Shown here piece by piece: positions 1 to 16,103 of a stretch of 64,000 nt of DNA. Numbering within the stretch: position 1 is the stretch's first letter; each line of letters begins with the position of its first letter. The notes beneath the pieces were generated by a model that ran no database searches, was not told where the DNA came from, and saw only the letters and a program-made list of their open reading frames with translations. The stretch lies in contig JBMOPU010000012.1 of NCBI GenBank assembly GCA_049322955.1, positions 19,581 to 83,580 of the forward strand. The letters run 5' to 3'. The position numbers and the translations under genes were made by a program. Source of the DNA: Patescibacteria group bacterium (GTDB lineage Bacteria > Patescibacteriota > Microgenomatia > UBA10105 > UBA927).

Positions 1-1064
1 ATGGTAGATCGTGAATGTAAAAAAATTTCAGTTAGTTGTTTGCCCTCAAGCTTCATATAGGTATCCAAAACACCCTTTAACAAATCTCTGGCAGCTGTTT
101 TTGTTAAATGAAATTGTTTATCATCTGGTGAATACCATGGCCCAAACTCACCCAAAAACACAACGCCGTCTCCCGTATTTAAGAACATTTGAGCTGCACA
201 ACACGCGGTATTACCTTCGCCTGTTAATCTAAAACAAATTCCTATATAACAAACACCTTCACGAGCACTTACAAGCTTCCATGGTTTACCTCCACATTTA
301 TAATATATGGTGGAATTCAAATTCCACATGCGATCAGACAATGGTGTTAAGCGCCTTTCACCAAAGGCGTAGTTATCGTCAGTTTTTAGTGTTGACTCGC
401 GTATTATTTGAATCGGAACATCATATTCCATTGCTCTTGCTTTTATTTGTCTTCTAAAATCAGGTGACATGAGATATTGGTTAGGATCATAGTTTTCAAT
501 TAAACCCAATTGACCGGATTTCCGCTTTGCTAATTCCTTTGGAGAGATTCTTGTTCCAATTGGATTAACTACGTGTGATTGAGTACGACAATTAAGCCAA
601 ACTTCATCGGGCACGACACAGATGACAACACCAATTTTTTCATCCATCTTTTTTAGCTTCTCTAGTCCCTCGAGGTACAAATCTACTACTTGAAATGCAC
701 GCTCACTTGCATTTCTTTGAATTGAGGCGGCGTGTAGATTTTTATCATCGATCTCATGTACATATACTGGTTTGGGCGAAAACTCCGAGTTAAATGCAGC
801 TTCAAAACCTGGGTAAGGGGGCCATATTTGTGTTCGGTCTTTTGGTGCGAGAACAGCTGGATTATTGATAATACTTACCCAATTTAAGTATTTTTGAATC
901 CCCATTTTTGTACCGATTGTTATATAAGAGATAGTTTTTGGGTGTGTACTAATATCAGAATCGTAAGGACCAAATAAGGATAATCCATCTCTCGGATCGA
1001 TCACTCTCTGACCGTATCGAAATTCTAATTCTGGTTCATCAAAAACTACTATTGGGTTACTCAT
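1..1064 (-). CDS. short prokaryotic Argonaute (MID-PIWI), predicted catalytically inactive; 3' end lies beyond window start
   Basis: Manual translation of minus strand from ATG at 1064..1062 is open through position 1, at least 354 aa; not in ORF track because there is no in-window stop. PIWI-type motif YYKCGGKPWKL (K-x-GG-x-x-W) is followed by GVCYIGICF, where the canonical GxDVxH aspartate is replaced. The start overlaps the stop of the upstream gene (ATGA). Confidence 0.6.
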   Translation of the reverse strand, partial: MSNPIVVFDEPELEFRYGQRVIDPRDGLSLFGPYDSDISTHPKTISYITIGTKMGIQKYLNWVSIINNPAVLAPKDRTQIWPPYPGFEAAFNSEFSPKPVYVHEIDDKNLHAASIQRNASERAFQVVDLYLEGLEKLKKMDEKIGVVICVVPDEVWLNCRTQSHVVNPIGTRISPKELAKRKSGQLGLIENYDPNQYLMSPDFRRQIKARAMEYDVPIQIIRESTLKTDDNYAFGERRLTPLSDRMWNLNSTIYYKCGGKPWKLVSAREGVCYIGICFRLTGEGNTACCAAQMFLNTGDGVVFLGEFGPWYSPDDKQFHLTKTAARDLLKGVLDTYMKLEGKQLTEIFLHSRST

Positions 1065-2839
1065 GCGTCATCTCCTTCTAAACTATCTACTTCAGTATCT
1101 TCTCTTTCAAAAGATTCAGGAGTCAAAGTTGTTTCATTAATTCCTTTGGGGGAGCTTAATATTATTGGCTCTGCGTCGATTATTATCGTGTCATCATCAT
1201 TCGTGCCTATTACTATTTTTTTATCCACTGCTAAAAACTCACATATTGCTAACAATCTTGTCAGCCATTCTCTATTCCACCAGTCTTTACATAAATCTTT
1301 TCGACGACCGTTAGCTTGATGGCCTGGAAGCGCATTTCCTACGATATCAGTAATATGAATCCTCGCTCTAACAAGGATTGTATAAGAATTAGCAATAGAT
1401 TTAGATATTGAAAACGTAGGCGCTAAATAGTATATGTATTGTTCTTTTGAAGCGCTCCTTCGGTATTTTCTTATACCAGAAGCGTTTATACGATTAATTT
1501 TTCCGCTCTGAGCTGTGTAGGTTAACGCATCGTTTTTAAGTAATCCTGAAGGAAAATAGACCATCCTTGCTGCTTTGTCATAGACAAGGCCTTTTTTTGA
1601 ACAATACACTTGAAGCGATTTACGTAATAATTCTGAAACTAAGTACGATGGATTAATTTCAAGTATTTTTTCTGTAGATGTCCATTCAATTTTTTCGATA
1701 TTAATATCATACTTTTGAACTAATTCAGATGGTGGATAGGAAAAACTCACCAATTTTTCACCAATAATCCTAAATGCCCAACTATCGAAATATTGAGTTA
1801 ACTCTTCATAATCAATTTTGGTTTTAGGGGAACTGACTAATAATTCTCCGGGTATTCTCTCAACTGTTAAGCAATTACTGATTAGCTGTTCCGTTTTATC
1901 TGTAATTACGCCCCTGTTCAAATAAAAGTTAGCGGCGATATTTTTGCCGTCCAATACAGACTTGGGAATTTTAAGAGATGTTAATTTTTTTAATAACTGG
2001 TCTAGCCCCTTTGCCCAATTCTCAAATGGAATCATGACAAGTTGGCTTGAAAAAGCATCTAGTTTATCTTGCGGCAGATTATCTTTCTTAAGAGGTATTA
2101 GAAATTCAATCTTCTGTTTTTTGCTAATATTCACAGCAAGAGACCGTTGTCTCACTATTTCAGCGTTACTCAGTGATTCCAATGAATATATTGATATTAC
2201 ACACGCCGCTTTAGAATCTATTGCCGTGTCGATATCGTCAGGATATTTCTCGCCACCTAAAAGCTTAAATCTTTCATACCAAACCGAATAACCCTCTGAA
2301 GTTAATTTGCGTACTAACCAATCAGCTAACGCTATATCACTTTTATCACAAGAAATTAATATGTTATTTTTTATCTTTTTGGTGGTGTCTATAAAAAAGT
2401 CATTTCTAAAAACCTGAGGATAATTGCCCTTGATTTCGGGATGTTGAGCATCAAGTAAATTTCTTAGCCGTTCTATGTCATAAATCTCCAAATCCCAGCC
2501 GTATTTCGATTTTATTATCATCTTTAATGAATCTCTCTCAGAAGCTGTAACATCTGAAGTAGTTACAAAAACATACTTCTCACACTTATGTCCATGTTTA
2601 ACAATTTTGTCTGCATCCTCAAATAGTTTCGCCTGCCAATCTTCTCTAACGCTATAAGAAAAAACTGTAGTCGTATTCTTTTTATCGACATGTACTGCAT
2701 CTCTACCTTTATCTTTAAATCCTCCTAATGGCTCTATTTCTGGATAACCGCTTACCGACAGCACATCGTCACAAAGACGCTCAAACTCAGCATAGTCAGT
2801 AAGTTCTTTTAAACAAAATGTGGTTAAGTTTGCACTCAT
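1061..2839 (-). CDS. Mrr-like nuclease-fold / TIR / APAZ-like multidomain protein (SPARTA TIR-APAZ partner)
   Basis: 592 aa. N-terminal segment FERLCDDVLSVSGYPEIEPLGGFKDKGRDAV resembles the Mrr restriction-endonuclease core. Central TIR-like block SCDKSDIALADWLVRKLTSEGYSVWYERFKLLGGEKYPDDIDTAIDSKAACVISIYSLESLSNAEIV. Long C-terminal region consistent with APAZ. TGA stop overlaps the pAgo ATG. Confidence 0.6.
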   Translation of the reverse strand: MSANLTTFCLKELTDYAEFERLCDDVLSVSGYPEIEPLGGFKDKGRDAVHVDKKNTTTVFSYSVREDWQAKLFEDADKIVKHGHKCEKYVFVTTSDVTASERDSLKMIIKSKYGWDLEIYDIERLRNLLDAQHPEIKGNYPQVFRNDFFIDTTKKIKNNILISCDKSDIALADWLVRKLTSEGYSVWYERFKLLGGEKYPDDIDTAIDSKAACVISIYSLESLSNAEIVRQRSLAVNISKKQKIEFLIPLKKDNLPQDKLDAFSSQLVMIPFENWAKGLDQLLKKLTSLKIPKSVLDGKNIAANFYLNRGVITDKTEQLISNCLTVERIPGELLVSSPKTKIDYEELTQYFDSWAFRIIGEKLVSFSYPPSELVQKYDINIEKIEWTSTEKILEINPSYLVSELLRKSLQVYCSKKGLVYDKAARMVYFPSGLLKNDALTYTAQSGKINRINASGIRKYRRSASKEQYIYYLAPTFSISKSIANSYTILVRARIHITDIVGNALPGHQANGRRKDLCKDWWNREWLTRLLAICEFLAVDKKIVIGTNDDDTIIIDAEPIILSSPKGINETTLTPESFEREDTEVDSLEGDDA

Positions 2840-2944
2840 TTAGTTACATTAACAATGCAGTTTGGTAAATCAGAATCTGCTGTTTGCAGTCTATAACTAT
2901 TGAAACTTTTGTCAACCTATTTAGTGTTCAATTAGGTTAGCCGG

Positions 2945-2953
2945 TGATATAAT
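2945..2953 (+). promoter_or_regulatory. extended -10 promoter element (TGaTATAAT)
   Basis: Sequence tgatataat at 2945-2953 in the divergent intergenic region between the SPARTA operon and the 3105 gene. Confidence 0.3.
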
Positions 2954-2954
2954 C

Positions 2955-3079
2955 ACTTCGAATCAGCCTAGAAGCTGTGCCGCGAGTAATCGCGGTGCTT
3001 TCATTGGATCTAATAAGGGGCAACCCAAACGGATCCAATGCTTCTAGGCTGAGGAATACGCGGGTTGTCCCTTTTTATT
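2955..3079 (+). ncRNA. candidate structured small RNA or cis-regulatory leader ending in a terminator-like hairpin
   Basis: Nested inverted repeats: cagcctagaagc ... gcttctaggctg; ccgcgagtaatcgcgg; cattggatc ... gatccaatg. A 10-bp stem ggggcaaccc / gggttgtccc (one G-U) at 3017-3071 is followed by tttttatt. Confidence 0.3.
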
Positions 3080-3104
3080 GTTTGACAACTCCAAAGGAGG
3101 ATAT

Positions 3105-3821
3105 ATGGATTCCATTCAGCCGGAGCAGACAAAACCAAATACCAGTCTGCTGAAAGTATTCTTGGCGGTTATTTTCTTTCCATTTACGATCAGCTATCTC
3201 ATTTGGAAACAAACACAATTTCCAACCCTCGTCCGTGTTCTCGGGATACTCATTTTCTGGGGAGTGTTTATAAAAATTGGATCATCAGGATCTAGTACGT
3301 CTAGTACAACAACGGGAAATAATAATACGGAGGTAGTTGCTACAAAAGCACCTACGCCTACAGTTGTAGTCATAACCCTAGAACAGAAACAAACAGATTT
3401 CAAAGAATTGTACAAAAAATATCAGTCGGGTGCACAAGGAATGCTCCTCGTACAGGTAGCCATTCAAAAGATAGCAAGTACAGCAACGAGCAAAGCGGAT
3501 TTGTATCTAGCACTGGATAAAGTTGAAAAAACTCAATCCGCGATAGCATCGGCAAACTCTGACATTAATACACCAAATTCTTTAAAAGAGTATAAACAAA
3601 TAAGTGAAGCACTCATGAATTTTCAAATTGCCGGAAATAACTTTACAGATGCGATAAAAAAGATGAAGGAATATGTGAATAAAGATGACCTTGAAAAACT
3701 GACCCAAGGAAAAGAGCAAATTGATCGTGGAACAGCAAGGCTCAGTGCGAGTAAAGATCTAATGGATGCGGTAGCTAAAACTTTAGAAGTAGATGTAACC
3801 CAAATACAAGGAACAAAATAA
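3105..3821 (+). CDS. hypothetical membrane-anchored protein (N-terminal TM helix, Ser/Thr-rich linker, helical C-domain)
   Basis: ORF with AAGGAGG RBS 6 nt upstream of ATG at 3105; the ORF-track start at 3078 is a TTG. One predicted TM segment (LLKVFLAVIFFPFTISYLIW). Confidence 0.5.
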   Translation: MDSIQPEQTKPNTSLLKVFLAVIFFPFTISYLIWKQTQFPTLVRVLGILIFWGVFIKIGSSGSSTSSTTTGNNNTEVVATKAPTPTVVVITLEQKQTDFKELYKKYQSGAQGMLLVQVAIQKIASTATSKADLYLALDKVEKTQSAIASANSDINTPNSLKEYKQISEALMNFQIAGNNFTDAIKKMKEYVNKDDLEKLTQGKEQIDRGTARLSASKDLMDAVAKTLEVDVTQIQGTK

Positions 3822-3840
3822 ATAGATTAATCCAAAATGT

Positions 3841-3893
3841 TGTCATTACTGTCATAATGTCATTCTTGTGTTCCGGCATGAAGCGTTTGTCAT
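3841..3893. repeat. tandem TGTCAT motif cluster (operator-like)
   Basis: tgtcattac tgtcataa tgtcattc at 3841-3863, plus a further tgtcat at 3888. Confidence 0.4.
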
Positions 3894-4391
3894 TTCCCCC
3901 TTACCCCCATGGGTATTCAAGCAGTTGATTGATATGTATTCAATCTTTGCTTTAGGATGGATTTTCCAACATTGGCTTCTTATACGTTCCGTATATGTGA
4001 GCTGAAATCGTCTTTCACCGTTTGTTGATCTTCGGTGTTCCCTTGGCTTACGAATTCTTTTAAGTTGTCATTGCCTGCCACCACACGTGGACTTTAGACT
4101 ATTTTAACTGGTAGTCGGAGAGATTTTTCAAAAACTATCATTTTCATCTAGAGCTAAGAGATAGCCTAAGCCGTATTCAGGGTCACCGCCTTTTGAATAC
4201 AAAATCTGATCTCGAGGTCACGAGACCATTCATTCTGAAGCTATTTTGCATAGGATATATAATCTACCATCCTTAGTAAAACAAAGACTCGAGTGTCATC
4301 AGGGAGACCTGAGCATATGTCCTCAGCCATAAGTAACGGTAGCCAAAAACGCTATTACTAAAAATTACTCGGGAGAAATTCAGACTTACGT

Positions 4392-4509
4392 GGATAGTTG
4401 AGCGTCTTGTCCATGAAAAAAATAGGATTGGGGTGGTTGTAGGCAACGGATACAAGATGTATCCACTTCAAAGCTAAGTTATCCGTGTCACTGGATACAA
4501 AACTTATCC
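4392..4509. repeat. iteron-like array of GGATAC / TTATCC half-sites in alternating orientation
   Basis: ggatag 4392, ggataca 4448, gtatcca 4460, ttatcc 4480, ggataca 4494, ttatcc 4504. tgtatccac resembles a DnaA-box variant. Confidence 0.35.
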
Positions 4510-4545
4510 AAGCATTATTTGCTGAATAGTTCCATCATAATGAAA

Positions 4546-5049
4546 TTAGGGTCTTATGTTATTCCATTTATCCTCATAGGATCCGGCCATTGGCACGTTG
4601 AAATTATACTCCTCATAAAAAAGCCCAAGACGGAAAGTGCGTACCGTGCTTTCTTTTGTTGCGCCTTTTGTTTCCATCCATGCTTTATGTTCATAGTACA
4701 AATACTGCGTTACGACATTGTTTGGAACGATAAAATATCGATATTTATATGTTGATTTATCAAAATGAACAAACACATAAAAATAGCTATCATCAGTTCG
4801 ATCCTCATCTTTCTTACTTAATATCCATGTTAGGCATTTGCCGAATATTTTGGAGTTTAATATACCTGCATCGGTATACATGATTGATACCGTAGAAACG
4901 GTTCCTTGTGTGCCACGGACCACCATTGTGATTCTACTACCATTTGTTGGTTTTATTTCAGTCGAATAACCATGAAAGAAAAATTGCTCAATGATATTAA
5001 ATAGCCCTATTTTCCTATCCGGATCGAAATTGTGAATTTTTGTCCTCAT
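4546..5049 (-). CDS. hypothetical protein (island cargo)
   Basis: 167-aa ORF in the AT-rich island; no recognisable motif. Confidence 0.45.
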   Translation of the reverse strand: MRTKIHNFDPDRKIGLFNIIEQFFFHGYSTEIKPTNGSRITMVVRGTQGTVSTVSIMYTDAGILNSKIFGKCLTWILSKKDEDRTDDSYFYVFVHFDKSTYKYRYFIVPNNVVTQYLYYEHKAWMETKGATKESTVRTFRLGLFYEEYNFNVPMAGSYEDKWNNIRP

Positions 5050-5066
5050 ACCATATATAGATTACA

Positions 5067-6224
5067 TTAATTACTGCGTTTCATCAGTATTCGAAATATC
5101 CACAAGTTTTTCTTTCTGTCAAACTGCCATTCTACATTGTCCTTAATTCTATGCTTTGGTTCAATAATCGTGCTTCGAATGTTGGTTACCGTTTCACCGA
5201 TTTTTGTAACTACCTCGATTTCTTCTTTGTTTACGAGTTTATAACTTTCGCATATCTGTTTTATTGTGTAGCGACCAGTATTATCCTTTTTCCACAAATC
5301 CCAAAACGCTTCAAACATTTTTCTACTTTTGTCAGCTCGTGAGAAATCAAATTGGTCAGTTGATCCATCAGTAAGCCTAAATATCAATTGTGAATTTTCA
5401 TACGTATATGATCTATCAGTTGGCGTCACAAAAAGACTTCGAGTGCTTGATAATTTAAATCGTTCCCTGATGGTTTCGTTTGATAATGAATTCGTCTCTT
5501 TGAGCGCTATCGTCACACTATAGTTATATTTATTATCCTTATATTCAATCTCTAAGTCATACACGTCTATTACCCGAGCAATCCACAACGTCATGACCAT
5601 TTCCATAAATTTATAATCCGTATATTCTTCGTTCACAAAACTATATTTTTCTTTTAATAATCCCATCAGATCTTTTGGAGATATTAATAGGTACTTCGGG
5701 TTATAAATCCGTAATACTTTATCCATATATTCCCTGAATATATCCAAATGCGTATTGAAATTAATATCTCGACCATTGCCAACAAGTTCATCATCCACAA
5801 ATAACGATATATATTGATTGATAATCGATTCAAGATGCTTTGCCTGAGTTTTGGTGTTACTGAGCGTTATTGTCAACGGAATTTGATCAACATTTTCACT
5901 CTTGATATCGTTTTTGGATTTTAAATACTTCGAAAAAGAACTGAATAAGTCCTTATAGCACTCGATTTTATCTGCCTCTTTTAACGGTCTGATAATCTCA
6001 CGCCTTCTCACTACTGTGCTTATGCTTGCGATATCCCAAAGAATGCTTAAGCTGTTATTGCTTTTTCGATTAAACACGGTCGTATCCACAAAAGAAGAAA
6101 AATTTGGATAACTACTTCGAGGTAGCTCAATATTGTCCAATCTATTTTTGGTCTTGAGCAAGGTTTCCAACGTCAAATAGAGTTGATTTGGATGAAAAAA
6201 GTGATGCAAGTGCATTGACCTCAT
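5067..6224 (-). CDS. hypothetical protein (island cargo)
   Basis: 385-aa ORF 18 nt upstream of the 167-aa ORF on the same strand; no recognisable motif. Confidence 0.45.
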   Translation of the reverse strand: MRSMHLHHFFHPNQLYLTLETLLKTKNRLDNIELPRSSYPNFSSFVDTTVFNRKSNNSLSILWDIASISTVVRRREIIRPLKEADKIECYKDLFSSFSKYLKSKNDIKSENVDQIPLTITLSNTKTQAKHLESIINQYISLFVDDELVGNGRDINFNTHLDIFREYMDKVLRIYNPKYLLISPKDLMGLLKEKYSFVNEEYTDYKFMEMVMTLWIARVIDVYDLEIEYKDNKYNYSVTIALKETNSLSNETIRERFKLSSTRSLFVTPTDRSYTYENSQLIFRLTDGSTDQFDFSRADKSRKMFEAFWDLWKKDNTGRYTIKQICESYKLVNKEEIEVVTKIGETVTNIRSTIIEPKHRIKDNVEWQFDRKKNLWIFRILMKRSN

Positions 6225-6272
6225 TATATTTCCTCGATCCCTTAATCACAAATCTATCGCTCATTTCTATTT

Positions 6273-6350
6273 ATGACGTCATAAACGATGTCATACGGCT
6301 TATTATGACAGCCTTCCGCACAAACTGCCCCATTGACTTCCCGATGTCAT
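6273..6350. promoter_or_regulatory. TGTCAT / palindromic ATGACGTCAT motif cluster in divergent promoter region
   Basis: atgacgtcat (6272-6281), gatgtcatac (6287-), atgaca (6305-), gatgtcataa (6343-). A ttgact -35-like hexamer follows before the 6400 ATG. Confidence 0.4.
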
Positions 6351-6399
6351 AAAAAATTACTTGACTTAGTACAAACATTTATTTCAAGAAAGGGAAAAT

Positions 6400-6738
6400 A
6401 TGAAAAATATTAGAGGCACATTTAAAGCAACTTTAATTAGCTTCAATTCCGTTGAAGTAAAAAGTGCTTATGTTGGAGAACATGGTTTTATAGAAGCTTA
6501 TTGGTTTGAACTTAATCTTAGAGATGGTTTCACCAAAATACTCCCATATATTCTTGACTACACATATGAGCTTTGGGAAGCAAAAAACGAATATTGGACA
6601 TTGACCCAACCTCTTAGATCATACAAAAACTCTTCTGATAAGGAACTCATTGGAACTACCTGCAGGGTTTCAGCAATTACAGACGATGAGGGTTTTCCCA
6701 TCTCTATCGACTTCATTTTATCAAAAAATAATAAATAA
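6400..6738 (+). CDS. hypothetical protein
   Basis: 112-aa ORF downstream of a ttgact / AT-rich promoter-like region. Confidence 0.45.
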   Translation: MKNIRGTFKATLISFNSVEVKSAYVGEHGFIEAYWFELNLRDGFTKILPYILDYTYELWEAKNEYWTLTQPLRSYKNSSDKELIGTTCRVSAITDDEGFPISIDFILSKNNK

Positions 6739-6763
6739 AAAATTTTTCTTGAAAGGAAAACAT

Positions 6764-8572
6764 ATGAACAATATAACTACAGAACAATATTTAAAAATTG
6801 CCAAATCTTATCTCGATTTTGGGTTCTCAATAATACCAATTGGAGCAGATAAAAAACCATTGATTAAATGGACTGAATATCAAAAACGACAAGCAACTGA
6901 TAATGAGGTGCAACAATGGATTACGTTTCCCAATCTGAATGGATTTGCGGTAGTGACTGGTCAAATATCAAACGTGTTTGTTTTAGATTGCGATGCTGGG
7001 TATAAACTGGACGATTTTGACCTTCCTCCGACACCCATGGTCAAAACCGGATCAGGTATCCATATCTATTTCCGCTATCCGAAGGCGTATCGGATAACAA
7101 ACACAACACAACTTCTTCCTCATGTCGACATCAGAGGAGAGGGTGGTTACGCCATACTCCCTCCCTCCCTCCATTCTTCTGGCGTTCGATATGAGTGGAT
7201 CAATAATCTTTCCACTCCTATAGTCGAAGCGCCGGAATGGTTACTAAAGCTTATAAAAGACAAAGCGAATGATGATAATTCAAATCCTCCTATTGCAGAA
7301 ATTGCTCAAGGCGTAGGAGAGGGTGGCAGAAATGATAGTGCCACTCGAATCATTGGCACTCTGCTAGCATACCAACCAGCAGAACATTGGCGAACAGTTA
7401 TATGGCCACTTATTCACACATGGAATACCAACAATCACCCTCCACTTTCTGGGTCAGAACTTGCTAACACATTTAAATCCATCGAGAAGCGTGAGTTAAC
7501 CAAAAGAAACAATCCGTCACTCAGTCAGAACATATATAGTCATGACCAAGTGACTGATACTCAATTTGAGTGTGTCGCTTTTTCAGAACTGATGGATAGG
7601 CACTTTAGTGACGATATCTGGACTGTTGATCATTTAATTCTTGAAAATGGCATCAACTGCATTGCAGGAAAACCCAAAAGTGGAAAGAGCTTTGTTGTCC
7701 TCCAAATGGCAAAGAATATTGCCGAGGGAAAACCTGTATTTGGAAAATACAAAACCAAGCAATCAAACATTCTCCTCATCACAAAGGAAGACAGCCTGCG
7801 TTTGCTTAAAATGCGGTTGGTTAATTTTGGTTCAAACAAAGATTTACCAATTTCATTCTCCATAGATTCAGATATTTATCTGGACAATAATCAATATCTG
7901 AACTCAATTCTTCAGAAATGTCGTGATCTTGACACTAAAATAGTCATTTTTGATAGCTTTCGCAGATTCATGCGAGGAGACGAAAACAGCTCTGCAGACG
8001 TTTCAAAACTTCACTGGTTTTTTAAACATCTGAATGACGCTGGAATAACCGTCATTTTCAATCACCATTTCAGAAAAGGGAATGTAGTATCCACGGACTC
8101 CTTCCGCGGATCATCCGATATTCACGCCATGGTAGATACCGCCATGGTGCTGGAATTAGATAAAGAACTCAACATCATTCAAGTCACACAAAATGCGTGC
8201 CGGGAAGCAGAGGAACAAAAACCATTTTCAATATCTATTCCAAAGTTTATAGATACTGACAGGGAATTCAAAATCGTTAACGCCTGTATTCAAATACAAA
8301 AAAGCGCTCATGATCAGGCAATTGAAGATGTTCTTAATTTTCTCCAAAAACAAAGCGAGCCAATCAATCAAAAAATGATTATTGAGGCATTGGTAAATCC
8401 AAATAGTCCATATAAAGGTACTTACGTCAAAAAAGCACTTGAAAGGCTTGCGGGTGTTGGCCGTGTCATTGCTCGTAAACAAGGAAATAAAACCTTTTAC
8501 TCACTTTCTGAGCATCAGTCACTCAGTCAAACCAGTAATGGTGATGACGAAGTGACGGATGAAATCATATGA
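6764..8572 (+). CDS. bifunctional primase-polymerase (prim-pol) N-domain fused to P-loop (RecA/DnaB-like, AAA_25-type) helicase/replication ATPase
   Basis: Prim-pol motifs: FSIIPIGADKKPLIKW, VVTGQISNVFVLDCD, KTGSGIHIYF, DIRGEGGYAILPPS. Walker A GKPKSGKSF and Walker B IVIFDSF. Start chosen at ATG 6764 with aaagga RBS; the ORF-track start overlaps the upstream ORF. Confidence 0.7.
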   Translation: MNNITTEQYLKIAKSYLDFGFSIIPIGADKKPLIKWTEYQKRQATDNEVQQWITFPNLNGFAVVTGQISNVFVLDCDAGYKLDDFDLPPTPMVKTGSGIHIYFRYPKAYRITNTTQLLPHVDIRGEGGYAILPPSLHSSGVRYEWINNLSTPIVEAPEWLLKLIKDKANDDNSNPPIAEIAQGVGEGGRNDSATRIIGTLLAYQPAEHWRTVIWPLIHTWNTNNHPPLSGSELANTFKSIEKRELTKRNNPSLSQNIYSHDQVTDTQFECVAFSELMDRHFSDDIWTVDHLILENGINCIAGKPKSGKSFVVLQMAKNIAEGKPVFGKYKTKQSNILLITKEDSLRLLKMRLVNFGSNKDLPISFSIDSDIYLDNNQYLNSILQKCRDLDTKIVIFDSFRRFMRGDENSSADVSKLHWFFKHLNDAGITVIFNHHFRKGNVVSTDSFRGSSDIHAMVDTAMVLELDKELNIIQVTQNACREAEEQKPFSISIPKFIDTDREFKIVNACIQIQKSAHDQAIEDVLNFLQKQSEPINQKMIIEALVNPNSPYKGTYVKKALERLAGVGRVIARKQGNKTFYSLSEHQSLSQTSNGDDEVTDEII

Positions 8573-8808
8573 GACTTAGTTTAAAAGCGATCTCAGAGTT
8601 TAAACAAATTTATAAAAACCAATTTGGTGTTGACCTAACCGAAGACGAAGCTAATACCAAAGGCTTGGAGTTACTGGGATTTTTCCAATACCTTTCTAAG
8701 CCAATACCCAAAGAAAATGAGCTGTATTTTCTTTCGCTTAGTGTTGAAAACGGAGCGTCTAATCGAGCTATGTACAATATCAAACAAACTGATAATAATA
8801 GACTATAG
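8569..8808 (+). CDS. hypothetical protein (translationally coupled, ATGA overlap)
   Basis: 79-aa ORF whose ATG overlaps the upstream TGA. Confidence 0.4.
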   Translation: MRLSLKAISEFKQIYKNQFGVDLTEDEANTKGLELLGFFQYLSKPIPKENELYFLSLSVENGASNRAMYNIKQTDNNRL

Positions 8809-8844
8809 GACTATGGTAATGAGCATCTATATTCAAAATCAAAT

Positions 8845-9120
8845 ATGAACCATGACATCAACTATTTTATATACTGCTCTCCTCATCAATCATTTTCAAA
8901 ACAGGAATCTGATCTGATTACATTTGCTGAAAAGGAAGAATTGAATGTCGTGGGTATATATTTTGGAACTTTTAGATCAATGCTTTTCCGTATTCAAAAA
9001 AGTGAGGCACAAGGCGTCATAGTCTCTGATATTACCGACCTACCAATTACACCATTATTTACTTCGCTTATATCAAAAAATCTCATTCGAGATATCAAAT
9101 ATCTAACTCAGTCCAAATAA
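8845..9120 (+). CDS. hypothetical small protein
   Basis: 91-aa ORF immediately upstream of the recombinase. Confidence 0.35.
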   Translation: MNHDINYFIYCSPHQSFSKQESDLITFAEKEELNVVGIYFGTFRSMLFRIQKSEAQGVIVSDITDLPITPLFTSLISKNLIRDIKYLTQSK

Positions 9121-9124
9121 TCGT

Positions 9125-10963
9125 ATGAATACGGATGCCACGAAACCAATCAAATATATTATGTACTGCCGAAAAAGCAGTGAGGGTGATGATAGACAAG
9201 CAGCCTCTCTTCCTGCGCAGAAAAGAGAACTTATTGACCTGCAAGAAAAAGAAAACCTAAAAGTCATCAAAGTAATAGAAGAAGCTCAGTCCGCATACCA
9301 CAAAGGTAGGCCACAATTTAGTCAGATGATCAATGATGTCCGAACTGGTAAAGCAAACGGTATTCTCGTTTGGAGCTTAAACAGAGTTACCAGAAATACC
9401 AATGACCACAACCTGATTGTAGAACTAATGAATGATGGATGTTTACGACGCATAACTACACCAAACAAATCCTACAACAATAATGCTGATGATATAGTGG
9501 CTATGGAAATGGATTTTATAAACTCAAAATGGTATTCAGCTAAGTTAAGCGAGGTCGTTAGACGAGGTAATAGACAAAAATTTTTAGTAAAGAAAGAATG
9601 GTCTGGATTAGCTAAACCAGGATATAAAAACGAATTTGACCAACAATTAAGAAAAAACATACTTGTTGTAGATGAAGAACGATTTCAATTGCTCCGAAAG
9701 GCGGCATTACTCATAATTAATGGTACACATACCGCTGGACAAGCCTTACACACCCTAAATGAGAAGTGGGGCTTTAAAACAAGATATATAAAAGTAAATG
9801 GTGGCAAGAAATTCTCAAGAACTTCTTTTTATGCATTCTTAAGCGACACCTATTATTATGGTCTTATGAAAAGAAAATTTGACGGTAGAGATTATACCGT
9901 TATGGGCGAACACAAACCAATGTTTACTGAGGAAGAATTTGATTTACTTCAAATCAGGCTCGGAAAAAAGGGGCTGCCACACCAATCCAAGCATGACTTT
10001 CCGTACAAAAGCGCTCTAAAATGTGGTGGATGCGGTGGATCAGTGACCGCTCAGGAGAAGTGGCAAGTAATCTGTCCTGACTGCAAGTTAAAGTTCCATA
10101 AAGGAAGATTAACCAATTCGTGCCCACAATGCAGCATCAAAATTGAGGACATGATCAAACCAAAGGTGCTTCATTATATATATTATGGCTGTGTCAAAAA
10201 AGTCCACCCAGAATGCACCGAGAAGCATATCAGGGTTGAAAATATCGAAAAAACCATAGATGAAGAACTCAAGAAATTTGAAATACCCAAAGAATTCACC
10301 CTTTGGGCCATAAAGTATCTCCAAGAGGTCAATACAGTGACCGAGAATGATCAAAGTGAGCGTCTGAAATATTTACACAAACAACAGGTGGCATGTCTTG
10401 CCCAAATTCAAAACTTAGTCAATCTCAAAACCAGATCGGACAATGTGGATGGCTCTATCCTCTCAGACGACGAATTTGTAGCTCAAAAGAAAAAACTGAA
10501 CACGGAGGCAGAAAGTATAACCTCGCAGATCAAACATGCGGATACTCAGGTGAATAATTGGGTATATTTGACGGAAGAAACCTTTAAATTTGCTTGCTTC
10601 GCAAGATACTGGTTTACCAAGGGTGATATCAAAACCAAGACCTATATTTTAAGCAAACTCGGTAATAACCTATTGATAAAAGACGGAAAACTATTGGTAG
10701 ATCAATCTAAAGCATTCTTTTTGATACAATCAGGTTATGACTCTGTAAAGAGTTTGGCCAATAAGTTGGAACCTAACTTGGAGGTTATCACACCAACCCA
10801 AATGCTCTCTCTCGAACCTGTTTGTAAACTATGGCGGAGGAGACAGGACTCGAACCTGCGTGGGATTGCTCCCGCGCGCTTTCCAAGCGCGTGCCGTAGC
10901 CGCTGGGCCACTCCTCCAAGGAAATTTATTATACCATCTTTGGCGCTTATCACGGTGCTATAA
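9125..10963 (+). CDS. large serine recombinase (phage-integrase type)
   Basis: N-terminal resolvase catalytic motif YCRKSSEGDDRQAASLPAQ. Cys-rich zinc-ribbon region CGGCGGSVTAQEKWQVICPDCKLKF...CPQC. Coiled-coil C-terminal part. The ORF's last ~45 codons read through the tRNA-Ser gene. Confidence 0.75.
   Translation: MNTDATKPIKYIMYCRKSSEGDDRQAASLPAQKRELIDLQEKENLKVIKVIEEAQSAYHKGRPQFSQMINDVRTGKANGILVWSLNRVTRNTNDHNLIVELMNDGCLRRITTPNKSYNNNADDIVAMEMDFINSKWYSAKLSEVVRRGNRQKFLVKKEWSGLAKPGYKNEFDQQLRKNILVVDEERFQLLRKAALLIINGTHTAGQALHTLNEKWGFKTRYIKVNGGKKFSRTSFYAFLSDTYYYGLMKRKFDGRDYTVMGEHKPMFTEEEFDLLQIRLGKKGLPHQSKHDFPYKSALKCGGCGGSVTAQEKWQVICPDCKLKFHKGRLTNSCPQCSIKIEDMIKPKVLHYIYYGCVKKVHPECTEKHIRVENIEKTIDEELKKFEIPKEFTLWAIKYLQEVNTVTENDQSERLKYLHKQQVACLAQIQNLVNLKTRSDNVDGSILSDDEFVAQKKKLNTEAESITSQIKHADTQVNNWVYLTEETFKFACFARYWFTKGDIKTKTYILSKLGNNLLIKDGKLLVDQSKAFFLIQSGYDSVKSLANKLEPNLEVITPTQMLSLEPVCKLWRRRQDSNLRGIAPARFPSACRSRWATPPRKFIIPSLALITVL
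10832..10917 (-). tRNA. tRNA-Ser (anticodon GGA)
   Basis: Manual fold of reverse complement. GGAGGAG acceptor, class-II long variable arm, anticodon loop TTGGAAA, T-arm GGTTCGAGTCC, encoded CCA. Confidence 0.85.
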
Positions 10964-10964
10964 T
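10956..10964 (+). promoter_or_regulatory. extended -10 (TGcTATAAT) giving a leaderless transcript for the EamA gene
   Basis: tgctataat ends 6 nt before ATG 10971. Confidence 0.35.
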
Positions 10965-10970
10965 CACCAC

Positions 10971-11870
10971 ATGAGCGTACGAAGAAAGGCGTTTTTGGGG
11001 CTAATACTTGTTTCGATATTGTGGGGAACGGCAGGTGTTACGGCCAAAATGCTAATTACCGAGCTCCATCCTTACGTGCTCCTGTTCTACCGATTCGGAC
11101 TTGCCTCCCTTATTTTTCTTCCCTGGTTTTTGCGGGCACACAAACCGGCGAATATGTGGCGGACACTTATTCCGTTTAGCCTATTAAGTATAGGAAATGC
11201 GCTGTTTTTTTATCTCGGCATTGTGCACACCTCCGCAAGCGCGGCCTCCGTTATCAATACCAGTACGCCGCTCCTTACGGCGCTTTTTTCTCATTTCCTG
11301 ATAGGCGAACGGACGCACAAAGAGAAAATATTGGGGGTAATCGTCGGACTTATCGGCACACTCATCATCATTCTTCTCCCGCTTTGGAATGAAGGCCGGA
11401 GTATCGGCGGAAGCATCACCGGAAATCTTCTTATTTTACTTTCCGTCGTCAGCTGGACACTGTACCTGGTAGGATCCCGTAAATTTATTTCGCAGGAAAC
11501 TTTTTCTCCCGTGGTGATGACGGAAATAAACTTTCTCACCCTGACGTTTTTTAGTCTGATAATGGCGATCGCAACCGGGCAATCGTTTGTTACCGATGCG
11601 CTCTACACTCCCTCGTATTTCTTCCTGTTACTGTATGCCGCAATCCCTGTTACCGTCGTCACGTTCGGAATATTCCAATGGGTCATTAAGCATATTTCCG
11701 CAACCACTGCGTCGCTCAAAGATTACATTCAGCTGGTTATTAGTGTCGGATTGTCTATCCTTATCCTGGGTGAACGATTGAACGCGATTTTTATTTTCGG
11801 AAGCGGTATTGTGGTTTTCGGCCTTATCCTTGCCTCACACAAGGCTATTTTGCGAATTCTTCGTGGATAG
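10971..11870 (+). CDS. EamA/DMT-superfamily transporter
   Basis: Ten-TM profile with duplicated EamA-like halves. The ORF-track N-terminal extension through the tRNA was rejected. Confidence 0.65.
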   Translation: MSVRRKAFLGLILVSILWGTAGVTAKMLITELHPYVLLFYRFGLASLIFLPWFLRAHKPANMWRTLIPFSLLSIGNALFFYLGIVHTSASAASVINTSTPLLTALFSHFLIGERTHKEKILGVIVGLIGTLIIILLPLWNEGRSIGGSITGNLLILLSVVSWTLYLVGSRKFISQETFSPVVMTEINFLTLTFFSLIMAIATGQSFVTDALYTPSYFFLLLYAAIPVTVVTFGIFQWVIKHISATTASLKDYIQLVISVGLSILILGERLNAIFIFGSGIVVFGLILASHKAILRILRG

Positions 11871-12441
11871 CATCGCGAATATCTTTCCACCAGTCTTGAG
11901 AATCGGTATCCGCAAGCGCGCGCATGAGGGCAACTGATTCGGGAAGGCGAACGCGGAGTGAGTTCGCATCCATCCATTCCTTTGCATGGGAATTGCCTTT
12001 TTCCATGAGGATACGGCACTCGACACCGAAGGCGATAACATTGGCCTCATAGACGATCTGTGCCTCAAGCGTTTGCTTTTCCTCATATTCGTTCAAGGTA
12101 GCAAGAAGCGCATCATCCACTCCCTGAAAAATATCCGCGTTGGCCTTATCTTCATGGCGCGTCATATAGCGCTTTGCCATTTTATCCATCTCACCAGTGC
12201 GCCCCTCATGAAAATCATGAAAGATACTCATGATGAGCACCTTTTCCATCGAGACCATTCGTTGGGAATCACCAGAAGCGTTTATTTCTTTTGCCAAAAA
12301 GTACGCAATGACGGCGGTCATAAATGAATGTTCGCCTACTCCCTCTTCATTGTCTCCCAATCGTTGCCATCCGGTACGGAGCATCCGCTTCACATTGGCG
12401 GCTTCGTAGATAAGATTGGTCAGTCTTTTTTGATCATCCAT
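11845..12441 (-). CDS. HD-domain phosphohydrolase (YfbR-like 5'-deoxynucleotidase family)
   Basis: Motifs RTGWQRLG, EHSFMTAVIA, HDFHE. Start set at MDDQKRL (ATG 12441..12439). Confidence 0.6.
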   Translation of the reverse strand: MDDQKRLTNLIYEAANVKRMLRTGWQRLGDNEEGVGEHSFMTAVIAYFLAKEINASGDSQRMVSMEKVLIMSIFHDFHEGRTGEMDKMAKRYMTRHEDKANADIFQGVDDALLATLNEYEEKQTLEAQIVYEANVIAFGVECRILMEKGNSHAKEWMDANSLRVRLPESVALMRALADTDSQDWWKDIRDAIHEEFAK

Positions 12442-12459
12442 AGAGATAGTATAGCTTTT

Positions 12460-12534
12460 TGGTACTCTCGACGGGAGTCGAACCCATATCACAGCCTTCG
12501 GAGGGCCGCATTCTATCCATTGAACTACGAGAGC
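12460..12534 (-). tRNA. tRNA-Arg (anticodon CCG)
   Basis: Manual fold: acceptor GCTCTCG, anticodon loop CTCCGAA, T-loop TTCGACT, encoded CCA. Confidence 0.8.
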
Positions 12535-12641
12535 AATATATATCCATTGTCAGCCAAAGGCTGATCGGCCTTTGGCCGAAACTACGAGAGCGACAAGCGT
12601 ATTATACCGCCCTTTCAGGCACTCTGCTAGAATGGGATCAC

Positions 12642-14732: not shown

Positions 14733-15145
14733 CGGCTGATACGGGAGATATCTCCGTCTAAAACGATGGGCTGAATCGCATGCATTTCGGTTTTGTAATC
14801 CATATCGGGAACCGGAAAAAGTAAATAGACCTTCTTCCCTAATCCGAATGCATATCCCATCTCAAGGAACGTGTTCCCGCCGATATAACCGGGAATCCCC
14901 TTCTTTTCATAATTTAAAATAAGAATGGCGTCTGCTTGTTCGATCTTTCGAAAATGCTCCCTGATAAAATCGTATTCGATTTTTACGGTAATTCGTTCTT
15001 CATCGGAATCCATATAGGATTCGTTTTTGTGGATATCATCCAGTTCTCCCGGAACAAACACCTGATACCCCGCGGCTATGAGCGTATCGCGCATTGCCGC
15101 CATCTCTTTATGAAATTGCATGCTCCCGCAAATGGTAATGGTCAT
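14729..15145 (-). CDS. nucleoside 2-deoxyribosyltransferase-like (PF05014-like) small Rossmann protein
   Basis: ICGSMQF...AGYQVFVP...NTFLEMGYAFGLGKKVYLL pattern. Confidence 0.45.
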   Translation of the reverse strand: MTITICGSMQFHKEMAAMRDTLIAAGYQVFVPGELDDIHKNESYMDSDEERITVKIEYDFIREHFRKIEQADAILILNYEKKGIPGYIGGNTFLEMGYAFGLGKKVYLLFPVPDMDYKTEMHAIQPIVLDGDISRISR

Positions 15146-15162
15146 AGTAATGTATGCTCCTT

Positions 15163-15252
15163 TGGCGGAAGGAGCGAGATTTGAACTCGCGTGGGCCTTT
15201 CGACCCCCAAGGTTTTCGAGACCTGGCCGTTTAGCCGCTCCGGCATCCTTCC
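15163..15252 (-). tRNA. tRNA-Ser (anticodon CGA)
   Basis: Manual fold: acceptor GGAAGGA, class-II variable arm, loop CTCGAAA, T-loop TTCAAAT, encoded CCA. Confidence 0.85.
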
Positions 15253-15309
15253 ATGCAACTTAGGGCTGTGCCGGGATCGCCGGTTCCGTCAGTGCTCCCG
15301 TATTATACT

Positions 15310-15744: not shown

Positions 15745-15760
15745 GATAATAAATAAATGT

Positions 15761-16093
15761 CTAGGTCTTTCGGGAAATTTCCGTATAAAGCACGATACTT
15801 GTCGTACCGACAAGTCCCCAAAACAACGGCATCCATAGAGGTATATTCAAAACCTGCGGTGTAACATAACTCCACGCGCGGCCGATATTTACCATGAGTA
15901 TCTCTACAATTGCTCCTCCGATTGTCAGTCCAGCATACCAGTAAAACTCACGCGCAATGGGAAGGAGCAGGCGCTTAACAAGTGCCAACGCAATAAGGAG
16001 GACCGACAGTACCAATGCCTGCTTCCAGAGGAAGATAATGCTTGCGATCGCGGCAAGGAGAATACTTAAGGCGATAAAAAAACGGGAAGACAT
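15761..16093 (-). CDS. small hypothetical membrane protein
   Basis: 110 aa, three hydrophobic helices. Confidence 0.4.
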   Translation of the reverse strand: MSSRFFIALSILLAAIASIIFLWKQALVLSVLLIALALVKRLLLPIAREFYWYAGLTIGGAIVEILMVNIGRAWSYVTPQVLNIPLWMPLFWGLVGTTSIVLYTEISRKT

Positions 16094-16103
16094 AAATTGC
16101 TTG

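What the first reader, a model, noticed from the sequence alone, without database searches (positions are those of the whole stretch)
3822..6399. Orphan two-gene module plus ~720 bp non-coding stretch inside the island, bracketed by TGTCAT motif clusters
Genes 5067..6224 and 4546..5049 (385 and 167 aa, same strand, 18-nt gap) have no recognisable family. They sit between the SPARTA pair and the replication module. Downstream lies an unusually long ORF-free region (3822-4545) full of short hairpins. Tandem TGTCAT(T/A)A repeats occur at 3841-3863 and again, with a palindromic ATGACGTCAT, in the divergent promoter region at 6272-6350. Defence islands often cluster uncharacterised systems, so this could be a new defence or anti-defence module controlled by one TGTCAT-binding regulator, or a non-coding RNA partner could be encoded in the 720-bp region.
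Basis: seen in the sequence. Interest (0 to 1): 0.7.

Follow-up and report, generated by a model that had tools for sequence, protein, structure and literature searches.

The report
Mobile-element control region, not a defence system
The two "orphan" genes and the long gene-free stretch belong to the conserved core of a small mobile element in a Patescibacteria genome: a DNA-binding regulator with its repeated binding boxes, an optional small nuclease, and a probably new ~720-base structured RNA. They are not a new defence system.

Summary
Both ORFs, the 724-bp ORF-free stretch and the TGTCAT clusters are real and far above chance.

The interpretation as a new defence or anti-defence pair is not supported. 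In related metagenomic elements the 385-aa gene always sits beside the serine recombinase and, where present, the PrimPol-helicase module. The defence cargo differs between elements (SPARTA here; restriction-modification, Thoeris-like or OLD-like genes elsewhere) and lies further out.

- **385-aa protein:** its only confidently modelled part is a C-terminal OmpR/PhoB-type winged helix. ATGAC/GTCAT boxes cluster next to its homologues in 7 of 10 elements, including elements that share no other recognisable backbone gene except a distant serine recombinase.
- **167-aa protein:** it has a PD-(D/E)xK nuclease fold and is optional. Several elements lack it.
- **ORF-free stretch:** it is as conserved at the DNA level (68-76%) as the coding genes. 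It has compensatory base-pair changes and a strand-specific folding signal (minus strand z = -3.8, plus strand z = -1.0). It matches no Rfam family. It most likely encodes a new large structured RNA; an origin of replication is the main rival.

The parts
5067..6224 (-). Gene for the 385-aa (probably 382-aa, start at 6215) hallmark protein of the element family. The N-terminal ~250 aa have no recognisable fold. The C-terminal ~130 aa form an OmpR/PhoB-type beta-sheet plus winged helix. It is the proposed ATGAC-box-binding regulator.
4546..5049 (-). Gene for the 167-aa PD-(D/E)xK-fold nuclease-like protein. It is an optional insertion between the regulator gene and the RNA region.
3822..4545 (-). 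Conserved ORF-free element of about 720 nt. It is proposed to encode a structured RNA transcribed on the minus strand, either as a long structured 3' region of the 385(-167) transcript or as a separate RNA.
   Evidence: A gap of 718-730 bp between the flanking genes is present in L002, L008, L025 and the P0013 contig, and partly in L006. Nucleotide identity is 68-76%, equal to or above the coding genes. No Rfam hit. Alifold z = -3.84 on the minus strand against -0.97 on the plus strand. 22 pairs have changes on both sides, against 9.7 in shuffles and 1-4 in slid controls.
4004..4057 (-). Best-supported helix of the RNA (GAATTCGT 4057..4050 pairing with ACGATTTC 4011..4004). It encloses a variable hairpin.
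   Evidence: Three separate compensatory double changes, one in each of three sequences, with 100% of cells paired. The enclosed hairpin differs in sequence in the window, L002 and L025 but is a hairpin in each.
4259..4346 (-). Second supported helix (4346..4337 with 4269..4259). It contains G-U pairs that would be C-A mismatches on the other strand.
   Evidence: Three pairs have changes on both sides, and G-U pairs are present.
3841..3863 (+). Three tandem TGTCAT boxes with 9- and 8-nt spacing, just after the stop codon of the convergent 247-aa gene, at the far end of the RNA region.
   Evidence: Conserved in the window, L002 and L008. Missing in L025, which also lacks ATGAC boxes in its promoter region.
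6272..6350 (.). Operator-like boxes in the divergent control region: ATGACGTCAT (6272-6281), TGTCAT (6289-6294), ATGACA (6305-6310), -35-like TTGACT (6333-6338), TGTCAT (6345-6350).
   Evidence: The same order and spacing are kept in the window, L002, L004 and L005. The core TGTCAT-N10-ATGACA-...-N22-TTGAC(T/A)-N6-TGTCAT recurs downstream of the 276-aa homologue in L024, with related arrays in L027 and L029.
6223..6251 (-). Promoter-like site for the 385-aa gene (TTGTGA, 17 nt, TATAAT). The ATG at 6215 lies 7 nt after the -10 element, which suggests a leaderless or nearly leaderless mRNA.
   Evidence: Consensus scan, 10 of 12 matches. 'GAAATATAAT' is conserved in the window, L002, L005 and L006/L007; the ATG follows 6-7 nt later in the window, L002 and L006/L007. 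The transcription start is inferred, not measured.
4448..4510 (.). Two GGATAC-N5-GTATCC-type palindromes 45 nt apart, directly after the nuclease stop codon.
   Evidence: Present with variations in L008 and L006. A GGATA...TATCC hairpin recurs at another position in L025 and L002.
3078..3821 (+). Convergent 247-aa gene (likely start 3105). The protein has an N-terminal hydrophobic segment and a Ser/Thr-rich linker. It is a conserved backbone gene that closes the module; variable cargo starts beyond it.
   Evidence: Homologues follow the gap or the nuclease in L002, L004, L008, L025 and L028. Translation.
6400..10963 (+). Rightward operon that the box region is proposed to control: 112-aa gene, PrimPol-PriCT-AAA_25-winged-helix replication protein (6650..8572), 79-aa and 91-aa genes, and a large serine recombinase (9125..10963). 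The 3' end of the recombinase ORF overlaps tRNA-Ser(GGA) at 10832..10917(-).
   Evidence: Pfam, tRNA scans, synteny.
1..2839 (-). Cargo: SPARTA-type pair. Mrr-TIR-APAZ lies at 1061..2839, and the downstream short-pAgo gene is cut by the window edge.
   Evidence: PADLOC Aga_REase-TIR-PNTD, E 3e-75. Pfam TIR_2 and Mrr_cat. Translation of 1..1060 reads like a pAgo but was not scanned against a family library.

Best explanation
Window 1..~10,900 is part of a low-GC integrative element. It is inserted at a tRNA-Ser gene of a Patescibacteria genome and carries SPARTA as cargo. Region 3822-6399 is the element's conserved control and maintenance core, not cargo.

1. **Regulator.** The 385-aa protein is a DNA-binding regulator. 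Its C-terminal OmpR/PhoB-type winged helix recognises ATGAC(A) boxes. Four boxes lie between its own promoter and the promoter of the divergent replication-excision operon (112 aa, PrimPol-helicase, 79 aa, 91 aa, serine recombinase). One box sits 6 nt after a -35-like TTGACT. One is a perfect palindrome just upstream of the regulator's own -35. The protein therefore probably autoregulates and gates replication and excision, much like a phage switch. Whether it activates or represses is unknown. Three further tandem boxes lie at 3841-3863.
2. **Nuclease.** The 167-aa gene encodes a small PD-(D/E)xK nuclease-fold protein. It has been inserted between the regulator gene and the downstream RNA region in some elements. 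It is an accessory, and its target is unknown.
3. **RNA.** The 724-bp ORF-free stretch encodes a conserved structured RNA of about 700 nt on the same strand as the two genes. Its function is unknown.

Shown: synteny, folds, motif enrichment and conservation, covariation, strand asymmetry. Inferred: who binds the boxes, the direction of regulation, that the stretch is transcribed, and any nuclease activity.

The confidence of 0.6 is for the whole package. By part it is about 0.85 for backbone rather than defence cargo, about 0.6 for the 385-aa protein as the box binder, and about 0.6 for the RNA.
For: **Backbone status**
- The 385-like gene sits next to AAA_25/PrimPol and serine recombinase genes in L001-L005, L025, L028 and the P0013 contig. 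It sits directly divergent from recombinase plus HTH_17 in L024, L027 and L029.
- The cargo beyond the 247-like gene differs: DUF4417/methyltransferase, NotI plus a D12 methylase, ThsB_TIR, OLD-like/MmeI-like, and SPARTA here.
- tRNA genes overlap the recombinase 3' end in the window, L002 and L028.

**Regulator**
- OmpR/PhoB-type fold.
- The box architecture is conserved across elements whose regulators are 59-70% identical.
- ATGAC/GTCAT clusters lie beside the gene in 7 of 10 elements. These include L024, L027 and L029, where tblastn finds no other window backbone protein except a 22%-identical recombinase.
- L028 lacks the boxes and has a strongly divergent recognition helix. L025 lacks them and differs at several helix positions.

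**Nuclease**
-. It is optional.

**RNA**
-. No ORF in any genetic code. No Rfam family.
Against: - No transcript data exist for any part of the region.
- The single-sequence fold of the stretch is not more stable than shuffles (z = -0.28 on the minus strand, -1.70 on the plus strand).
- Covariation rests on only four independent sequences, and the tested structure was derived from the same alignment.
- Box spacings of 8-9 nt in the triple repeat are unusual for OmpR-type domains. By general knowledge these usually bind direct repeats about 10-11 bp apart.
- Three ATGACA copies inside the RNA region persist in L025, where the promoter boxes are gone. Those copies may be RNA sequence rather than operators.
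- The exact 24-mer ATGACAGTATGACAGTAATGACAG also occurs in unrelated contigs that lack any 385-like protein. Other proteins can therefore recognise such arrays.
- The N-terminal two thirds of the 385-aa protein remain uninterpreted.
- Elements L004 and L028 lack the RNA region, so it is not essential for the backbone.
Confidence: 0.6

Rival explanations
1. Iteron-type replication origin. The 385-aa protein would be a Rep-like initiator. The 724-bp stretch would be oriV, with the three tandem TGTCAT boxes as iterons. The ATGACGTCAT palindrome in the promoter would be the classical autorepression site for Rep dimers. The PrimPol-helicase would be recruited to this origin.
For: - Tandem direct repeats lie near the gene, and an inverted repeat of the same half-site lies in its own promoter.
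- In minimal elements (L024, L027, L029) no other recognisable replication protein is present.
- Palindromes and hairpins are common in origins.
Against: - The whole 720 nt is conserved at 68-76%, although the 385-like proteins have fallen to 27% identity. That is atypical for origins.
- The structure signal is strand-specific, and several helices use G-U pairs.
- L025 keeps the region but has lost the triple repeat.
- L004 and L028 have both the PrimPol/helicase and the 385-like gene but no such region.
Confidence: 0.2
2. One reading: genes 5067..6224 and 4546..5049, with or without an RNA partner, form a new defence or anti-defence system carried in a defence island. A wHTH sensor would work with a nuclease effector.
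For: - The module sits in an element that carries SPARTA, and related elements carry other defence genes.
- The small protein has a restriction-endonuclease-like fold and no partner methylase.
- Neither protein matches a known family.
Against: - The 385-like gene is fixed next to the recombinase and replication genes, while the defence genes vary.
- The nuclease is missing in at least five element types that keep the 385-like gene.
- A distant nuclease homologue (L028) has lost the candidate catalytic residues.
- No PADLOC hit.
- The ATGAC boxes sit at the promoters of the element's own operons.
Confidence: 0.08
3. Selfish nuclease cassette. The 167-aa protein would be a homing-type endonuclease, like I-Ssp6803I, that inserted itself between the regulator gene and the RNA gene. 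The conserved stretch would then be unrelated to the nuclease.
For: - The gene shows presence/absence polymorphism at one precise junction.
- It is a free-standing small ORF with a 17-nt gap after the upstream gene.
Against: - The nuclease has diverged in step with its element (42-68% identity), which suggests long residence rather than recent homing.
- It also occurs in elements without the RNA region (L004, L028).
- No target-site duplication or intron/intein context was seen.
- This reading is compatible with the main explanation rather than opposed to it.
Confidence: 0.25

Closest known systems
Tycheposons and related cryptic tRNA-targeting integrative elements (Hackl et al., bioRxiv 10.1101/2020.12.28.424599)
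   Same: Small integrative elements inserted at tRNA genes. They carry a site-specific integrase (a minority use large serine recombinases), excisionase-like small genes, primase/helicase replication modules, regulators and variable cargo that includes defence genes.
   Different: The host is Patescibacteria rather than marine cyanobacteria. The integrase here is a large serine recombinase whose ORF overlaps the tRNA. The hallmark 385-aa regulator family and the 720-nt conserved non-coding element were not seen in the passages of that paper I searched. No protein comparison with tycheposon genes was run, so this is an analogy of organisation, not tested membership.
OmpR/PhoB-family winged-helix transcription factors (Pfam Trans_reg_C; includes response regulators, CadC/ToxR and SARP/AfsR)
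   Different: No sequence match to Trans_reg_C in any of 60 family members. There is no receiver domain; the N-terminal ~250 aa are of unknown fold. The boxes occur in both orientations and at 8-9-nt spacing in the triple array.
PD-(D/E)xK nucleases: I-Ssp6803I homing endonuclease, archaeal Hjc resolvase, small type II restriction enzymes (PvuII, NhoI), RecU-like proteins
   Different: No sequence-level family match. The canonical D...(D/E)xK could not be placed with confidence. There is no methyltransferase partner and no intron context. The L028 homologue lacks the conserved charged residues.
Large structured non-coding RNAs of mobile elements and prophages (GOLLD, ROOL, HEARO, OLE class; compared from general knowledge)
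   Same: Several hundred nucleotides long, located in a mobile element. Invariant blocks alternate with variable hairpins, and there is no coding capacity.
   Different: No match to any Rfam 15 model at E <= 1 or at gathering score in related loci. Only four sequences are known, transcription is unproven, and thermodynamic stability is unremarkable.
Phage lambda-type divergent switch (CI at PRM/PR; compared from general knowledge)
   Same: The regulator gene is transcribed divergently from the replication/excision operon. Shared multiple operators lie between the two promoters. The regulator mRNA is probably leaderless.
   Different: The DNA-binding fold is different (OmpR-type rather than a lambda-repressor-type HTH). 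Operator occupancy, cooperativity and any induction signal are unknown. In L024-type elements the gene is co-directional with the operon it would control.

Membership tests
Known anti-phage defence systems (PADLOC-DB models) | At least one protein matches a model of a known or candidate defence system | tested here: not met
   No PADLOC hit for the 385-aa, 167-aa, 247-aa or 112-aa proteins at E <= 0.01. The neighbouring TIR-APAZ hits at 3e-75.
Defence-island cargo (guilt by association) | The gene pair travels with varying defence neighbours, independently of a given mobile-element backbone | tested here: not met
   In every locus recovered, the 385-like gene is adjacent to the recombinase/replication backbone. 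The defence genes vary and sit beyond the 247-like gene.
Obligate two-gene system (385 aa + 167 aa) | The two genes co-occur across genomes | tested here: not met
   Co-occurrence is seen in the window, L002, L004, L005, L006, L008 and L028. The nuclease is absent next to the 385-like gene in L025, the P0013 contig, L024, L027 and L029.
OmpR/PhoB-type winged-helix DNA-binding domain | Fold: N-terminal small beta-sheet, three-helix winged HTH, C-terminal beta-hairpin | tested here: met
OmpR/PhoB-type winged-helix DNA-binding domain | Sequence membership in Pfam Trans_reg_C (PF00486) | tested here: not met
   No Pfam hit for the window protein or for any of 60 family members.
OmpR/PhoB-type winged-helix DNA-binding domain | Sequence-specific binding to repeated DNA boxes | not testable with these tools
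   Only indirect evidence: ATGAC/GTCAT clusters beside the gene in 7 of 10 elements.
PD-(D/E)xK nuclease superfamily | Alpha-beta-beta-beta-alpha-beta core fold | tested here: met
PD-(D/E)xK nuclease superfamily | Catalytic D...(D/E)xK residues in the canonical strands | tested here: inconclusive
   Conserved D60, D81/E82, D97-K98 and E120-H-K122 exist in the close subfamily. They could not be mapped unambiguously, and the L028 homologue lacks them.
Any described RNA family (Rfam 15) | Covariance-model match | tested here: not met
   Only tRNAs were found, at E <= 1 in window 1-11500 and at gathering score in six related loci.
Structured non-coding RNA (generic) | Conserved secondary structure supported by compensatory changes, specific to one strand | tested here: met
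   Alifold z = -3.84 (minus) against -0.97 (plus). 22 double-change pairs against 9.7 +/- 2.4 in shuffles and 1-4 in slid controls. Caveats: only 4 sequences, and the structure was derived from the same alignment.
Structured non-coding RNA (generic) | The region is transcribed | not testable with these tools
   No expression data are available. The promoter and terminator scans were uninformative.
Iteron-type replication origin | Several direct repeats bound by the element's initiator, next to an AT-rich unwinding region, and required for replication | tested here: inconclusive
   Direct repeats are present. However, they are lost in L025 while the rest of the stretch is kept. The stretch is absent in L004 and L028, which keep the replication genes. 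Function is not testable here.
tRNA-targeting integrative element with serine recombinase | Large serine recombinase at the element edge abutting a tRNA gene; compositional island | tested here: met
   Resolvase/Recombinase/Zn_ribbon_recom domains at 9125..10963. tRNA-Ser at 10832..10917. GC is 33-42% in the island against about 50% outside. The same arrangement occurs in L002 and L028. The left end lies outside the window.

The most novel reading that the evidence does not exclude
The 724-bp stretch encodes a previously undescribed class of large (~700 nt) structured RNA. It would be specific to serine-recombinase/PrimPol integrative elements of Patescibacteria and genetically coupled to a new family of OmpR-fold regulators. 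Such an RNA could take part in element maintenance, replication control or transfer, as an RNA partner of the element rather than a passive UTR.
Probability: 0.4. Interest if true: 0.7.

Novelty: new variant of a known kind. Interest (0 to 1): 0.5.

Why it matters
- **Mobile elements of Patescibacteria.** These elements are almost undescribed, and it is unclear how such tiny, often episymbiotic cells acquire and move defence genes. This locus defines a recurring backbone: serine recombinase, small proteins, PrimPol-helicase, an OmpR-fold regulator with ATGAC boxes, a ~720-nt conserved non-coding element and a membrane protein. That backbone carries SPARTA, restriction-modification, Thoeris-like and OLD-like cargo in different copies.
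- **Annotation.** The 385-aa family and its boxes give a practical marker for finding such elements and their cargo slot.
- **The non-coding stretch.** It is a candidate new large structured RNA.
- **A caution.** "Unknown genes next to defence genes" can be the vehicle's own control region rather than a new defence system.

Tried and rejected
- **Family searches.** Pfam, NCBIfam, PHROGs, PADLOC and PDB sequence searches gave nothing for either protein. A 60-member family profile also found nothing in Pfam or PDB.
- **Structure of the 385-aa protein.** AF2 was uninformative for residues 1-~280.
- **Alternative genetic codes.** TGA, TAG or TAA read as sense do not open a conserved ORF in 3822-4545.
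- **Known RNA families and intron ideas.** No Rfam match, including the group I/II intron, GOLLD, ROOL, HEARO and OLE models.
- **Similar DNA in annotated collections.** blastn of the stretch against the phage and plasmid collections found nothing.
- **Covariance model.** A model of the best-conserved 130 nt found no further copies in 230 kb of held loci.
- **Triple-box scans.** The metagenome and genome scans mostly returned unrelated contigs. These contigs have no 385-like protein, so they do not help with this element.
- **Literature.** A search for the 24-mer found nothing.
- **Other candidate box binders.** The 112-aa protein is less likely: L004 keeps the boxes but has no 112-aa homologue. 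The PrimPol C-terminal winged helix is less likely: L024, L027 and L029 have boxes but no PrimPol.
- **Calls that failed or added little.** The last profile search of the 5.8-billion protein set returned only already-known members. The afdb50 fold library was unavailable.
Full report
**Setting.** The first ~10.9 kb of the window have 33-42% GC, against about 50% for the rest. The island ends at a large serine recombinase gene (9125..10963). The 3' end of that ORF overlaps a tRNA-Ser(GGA) gene at 10832..10917. Reading leftwards, the island holds:
- a 91-aa and a 79-aa gene
- a PrimPol-PriCT-AAA_25-winged-helix replication protein (6650..8572)
- a 112-aa gene
- the divergent 385-aa and 167-aa genes
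- the 724-bp ORF-free stretch
- a convergent 247-aa membrane-protein gene
- a SPARTA pair: Mrr-TIR-APAZ at 1061..2839 and a downstream short-pAgo-like ORF cut by the window edge

The 385-aa protein is 100% identical to a protein of a Patescibacteria MAG on a 990,597-bp contig.

**Check of the observation.** All features are at the stated coordinates.
- The two proteins have no hit in Pfam, NCBIfam, PADLOC or PDB sequences.
- The stretch 3822-4545 has no conserved ORF, also when any single stop codon is read as sense.
- TGTCAT occurs six times on the + strand of the stretch, against 0.37 expected (0 of 3000 simulations).
- The 175-bp divergent region holds five ATGAC/GTCAT pentamers, against 0.36 expected.
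- Two minor corrections: the intergenic gap is 17 nt, and the 385-aa gene probably starts at 6215.

**The pair is backbone, not cargo.** The 385-aa protein has only seven close homologues among 5.8 billion proteins. Their contigs all show the same neighbourhood: recombinase, small genes, PrimPol and/or AAA_25 helicase and a small gene, then divergently the 385-like gene, usually the 161-167-aa gene, and a convergent 220-240-aa homologue of the 247-aa gene.

In L001/L002 the element is inserted next to an EamA gene, as in the window, and a tRNA gene again overlaps the recombinase 3' end. Beyond the 247-like gene the content differs:

| Locus | Cargo beyond the 247-like gene |
|---|---|
| L002 | DUF4417, HTH/M78 and a methyltransferase |
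| L025 | NotI plus a D12 methylase |
| L028 | ThsB_TIR |
| Window | SPARTA |

L024 carries OLD-like and MmeI-like genes. It has no 247-like homologue, so its cargo sits downstream of its own 385-like operon.

A profile search of 1.84 billion representatives found 93 family members. Most share only the C-terminal ~130 residues. In L024, L027 and L029-L032, these shorter or more distant homologues are the first gene transcribed divergently from a large serine recombinase plus an HTH_17 excisionase-like gene. These elements have no PrimPol. The 385-aa family is therefore a hallmark of a group of serine-recombinase integrative elements.

**The boxes.** The divergent control region keeps one architecture in the window, L002, L004 and L005. 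Read in the direction of the replication operon, it is ATGACGTCAT, 7-8 nt, TGTCAT, 10 nt, ATGACA, 22 nt, TTGACT, 6 nt, TGTCAT.

Essentially the same core (TGTCAT-N10-ATGACA ... N22-TTGACA-N6-TGTCAT) lies just downstream of the 276-aa homologue in L024. Related GTCAT/ATGAC arrays lie downstream of the homologues in L027 and L029. In total, 7 of 10 elements have a significant cluster within 180 bp of the gene.

L024, L027 and L029 share no other recognisable backbone gene with the window apart from a distant recombinase. The 385-like winged helix is therefore the most economical candidate for the box-binding protein. L028 has no boxes and a strongly divergent recognition helix. L025 has no promoter boxes, differs at several helix positions, and has also lost the triple repeat.

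Box positions suggest joint control of both promoters. One box lies in the spacer after a -35-like hexamer, and the palindrome lies just upstream of the -35 of the regulator's own promoter-like site (TTGTGA-17-TATAAT, 6251..6223). The sign of regulation cannot be told.

The gene is missing in L025 and in the P0013 contig. There the 385-like gene is followed directly by a gap of 718-724 bp between the genes. It is thus an optional insertion at one precise junction.

**The ORF-free stretch.** An intergenic gap of 718-730 bp between the same flanking genes occurs in L002, L008, L025 and the P0013 contig, and partly in the short contig L006.

- *Conservation.* Its nucleotide identity to the window is 76%, 68% and 69% for L002, L008 and L025. 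The neighbouring coding genes are 61-78% identical. In L025 the 385-like protein is only 27% identical.
- *Pattern.* Invariant blocks of up to ~25 nt alternate with segments that differ in sequence and length but form a hairpin in each copy. Examples are GATTGA...TCAATC, CTACTG...CAGTAG and CTGTATT...AATACAG at one position, and CCAC/CCTC/CCGC...GTGG/GAGG/GCGG at another.
- *Best helix.* One 7-bp helix (window 4057..4050 with 4011..4004) carries three compensatory double substitutions, one in each of three lineages.
- *Pair counts.* On the four-sequence alignment, 93% of cells pair. 22 pairs have changes on both sides, against 9.7 +/- 2.4 in shuffles and 1-4 when partners are slid.
- *Strand specificity.* A column-shuffling test of the consensus folding energy gives z = -3.84 for the minus strand (0 of 60 shuffles reach it) and z = -0.97 for the plus strand. 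This asymmetry points to RNA, or at least single-stranded nucleic acid, from the strand of the 385/167 genes rather than to double-stranded protein sites.
- *Limits.* There are only four sequences, the structure came from the same alignment, the single-sequence stability is unremarkable and there are no expression data.
- *No known relatives.* No Rfam family matches. Nothing similar is in the phage or plasmid collections. A covariance model finds no extra copies in the held loci. L004 and L028 lack the stretch, so it is dispensable for the backbone.

**Most likely mechanism.** The region is the control core of the element.
1. The OmpR-fold protein binds the ATGAC boxes. It sets the level of its own probably leaderless transcript and of the replication-excision operon.
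2. A structured RNA is made from the DNA downstream of it.
3. The nuclease is an accessory gene.

The main rival is an iteron-type origin with the 385-aa protein as initiator. It explains the tandem boxes and the promoter palindrome. It fits less well with the strand asymmetry, the conservation of the whole 720 nt, the loss of the triple repeat in L025 while the rest is kept, and the absence of the stretch from L004 and L028.

The defence-system reading is the least supported.

**Comparison with known systems.** In organisation the element resembles tycheposons and related cryptic tRNA-targeting elements (10.1101/2020.12.28.424599). I did not test any protein-level relationship. The regulator resembles OmpR-family factors in fold only. 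The nuclease belongs to the PD-(D/E)xK fold class. The RNA candidate has no described relative.

**Verdict.** The finding is real but was read wrongly. It is not a new defence system. It is a new variant of a known kind of element, with one part that may be new: the large conserved non-coding element.

Noticed in passing
L010:13527-13549, L011:542-564, L017:1056-1078, L019:724-746, L020:3632-3654, L022:148-170, L023:1373-1395 (near-identical in L018, L021): The exact 24-mer ATGACAGTATGACAGTAATGACAG (three tandem ATGACAGT units) recurs in unrelated contigs. These include Clostridia, Bacteroides, Prevotella and Thermoproteota MAGs and a 66%-GC contig. It usually lies in an intergenic spot upstream of a gene and near replication genes: an AAA_25 helicase 590 bp upstream in L010/L014/L015/L023, and a BT4734/PriCT/VapE primase in L022. 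None of these loci has a 385-like protein, so some other widespread factor must recognise this array.
   Followed up: partly
window 9125-10963 and 10832-10917; L002:5514-5598; L028:5395-5475: The serine recombinase ORF runs antisense across the tRNA gene it abuts; in the window it covers the whole tRNA-Ser. The window recombinase is 612 aa against 580 aa in L002. Its C-terminal tail may therefore differ between the integrated and excised forms of the element.
   Followed up: no
window 10832-19549: A dense cluster of seven tRNA genes, five tRNA-Ser and two tRNA-Arg. One is called by ARAGORN as tRNA-Ser with anticodon ACT (17436-17519), which would be unusual for a bacterium.
   Followed up: no
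window 1061-2839: The TIR-APAZ partner of the short pAgo carries an N-terminal Mrr-type restriction-endonuclease domain (PADLOC model Aga_REase-TIR-PNTD1-PNTD2, E 3e-75). It is therefore a nuclease-fused SPARTA variant, in a Patescibacteria genome.
   Followed up: partly
L002:17165-17335: A 56-aa ORF at the far end of the L002 island is 42% identical over 40 aa to the 79-aa backbone protein (window 8569-8808). It may be a remnant of a second, tandemly inserted element or may mark the island boundary.
   Followed up: no
L027:4553-5568 and L024:4832-5206: The more distant elements also have long ORF-free stretches (about 1.0 kb and 0.37 kb) after their 385-like operons. They have no Rfam hit and no similarity to the window's stretch. 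They could be further uncharacterised non-coding elements.
   Followed up: partly
window 3078-3821; L002:12378-13088; L025:7099-7806; L028:11727-12392: The convergent 247-aa protein has an N-terminal hydrophobic segment, a Ser/Thr-rich linker and a helical C-terminal part. It is a conserved backbone gene of unknown function that marks the border between backbone and cargo.
   Followed up: partly
L007:464-949 and L006:1-417: In the closest relative of the window's element (87% identical 385-like protein), an extra 161-aa gene in the same orientation precedes the 385-like gene, replacing the divergent box region seen in the window. It is not homologous to the 167-aa nuclease despite its similar length.
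   Followed up: partly
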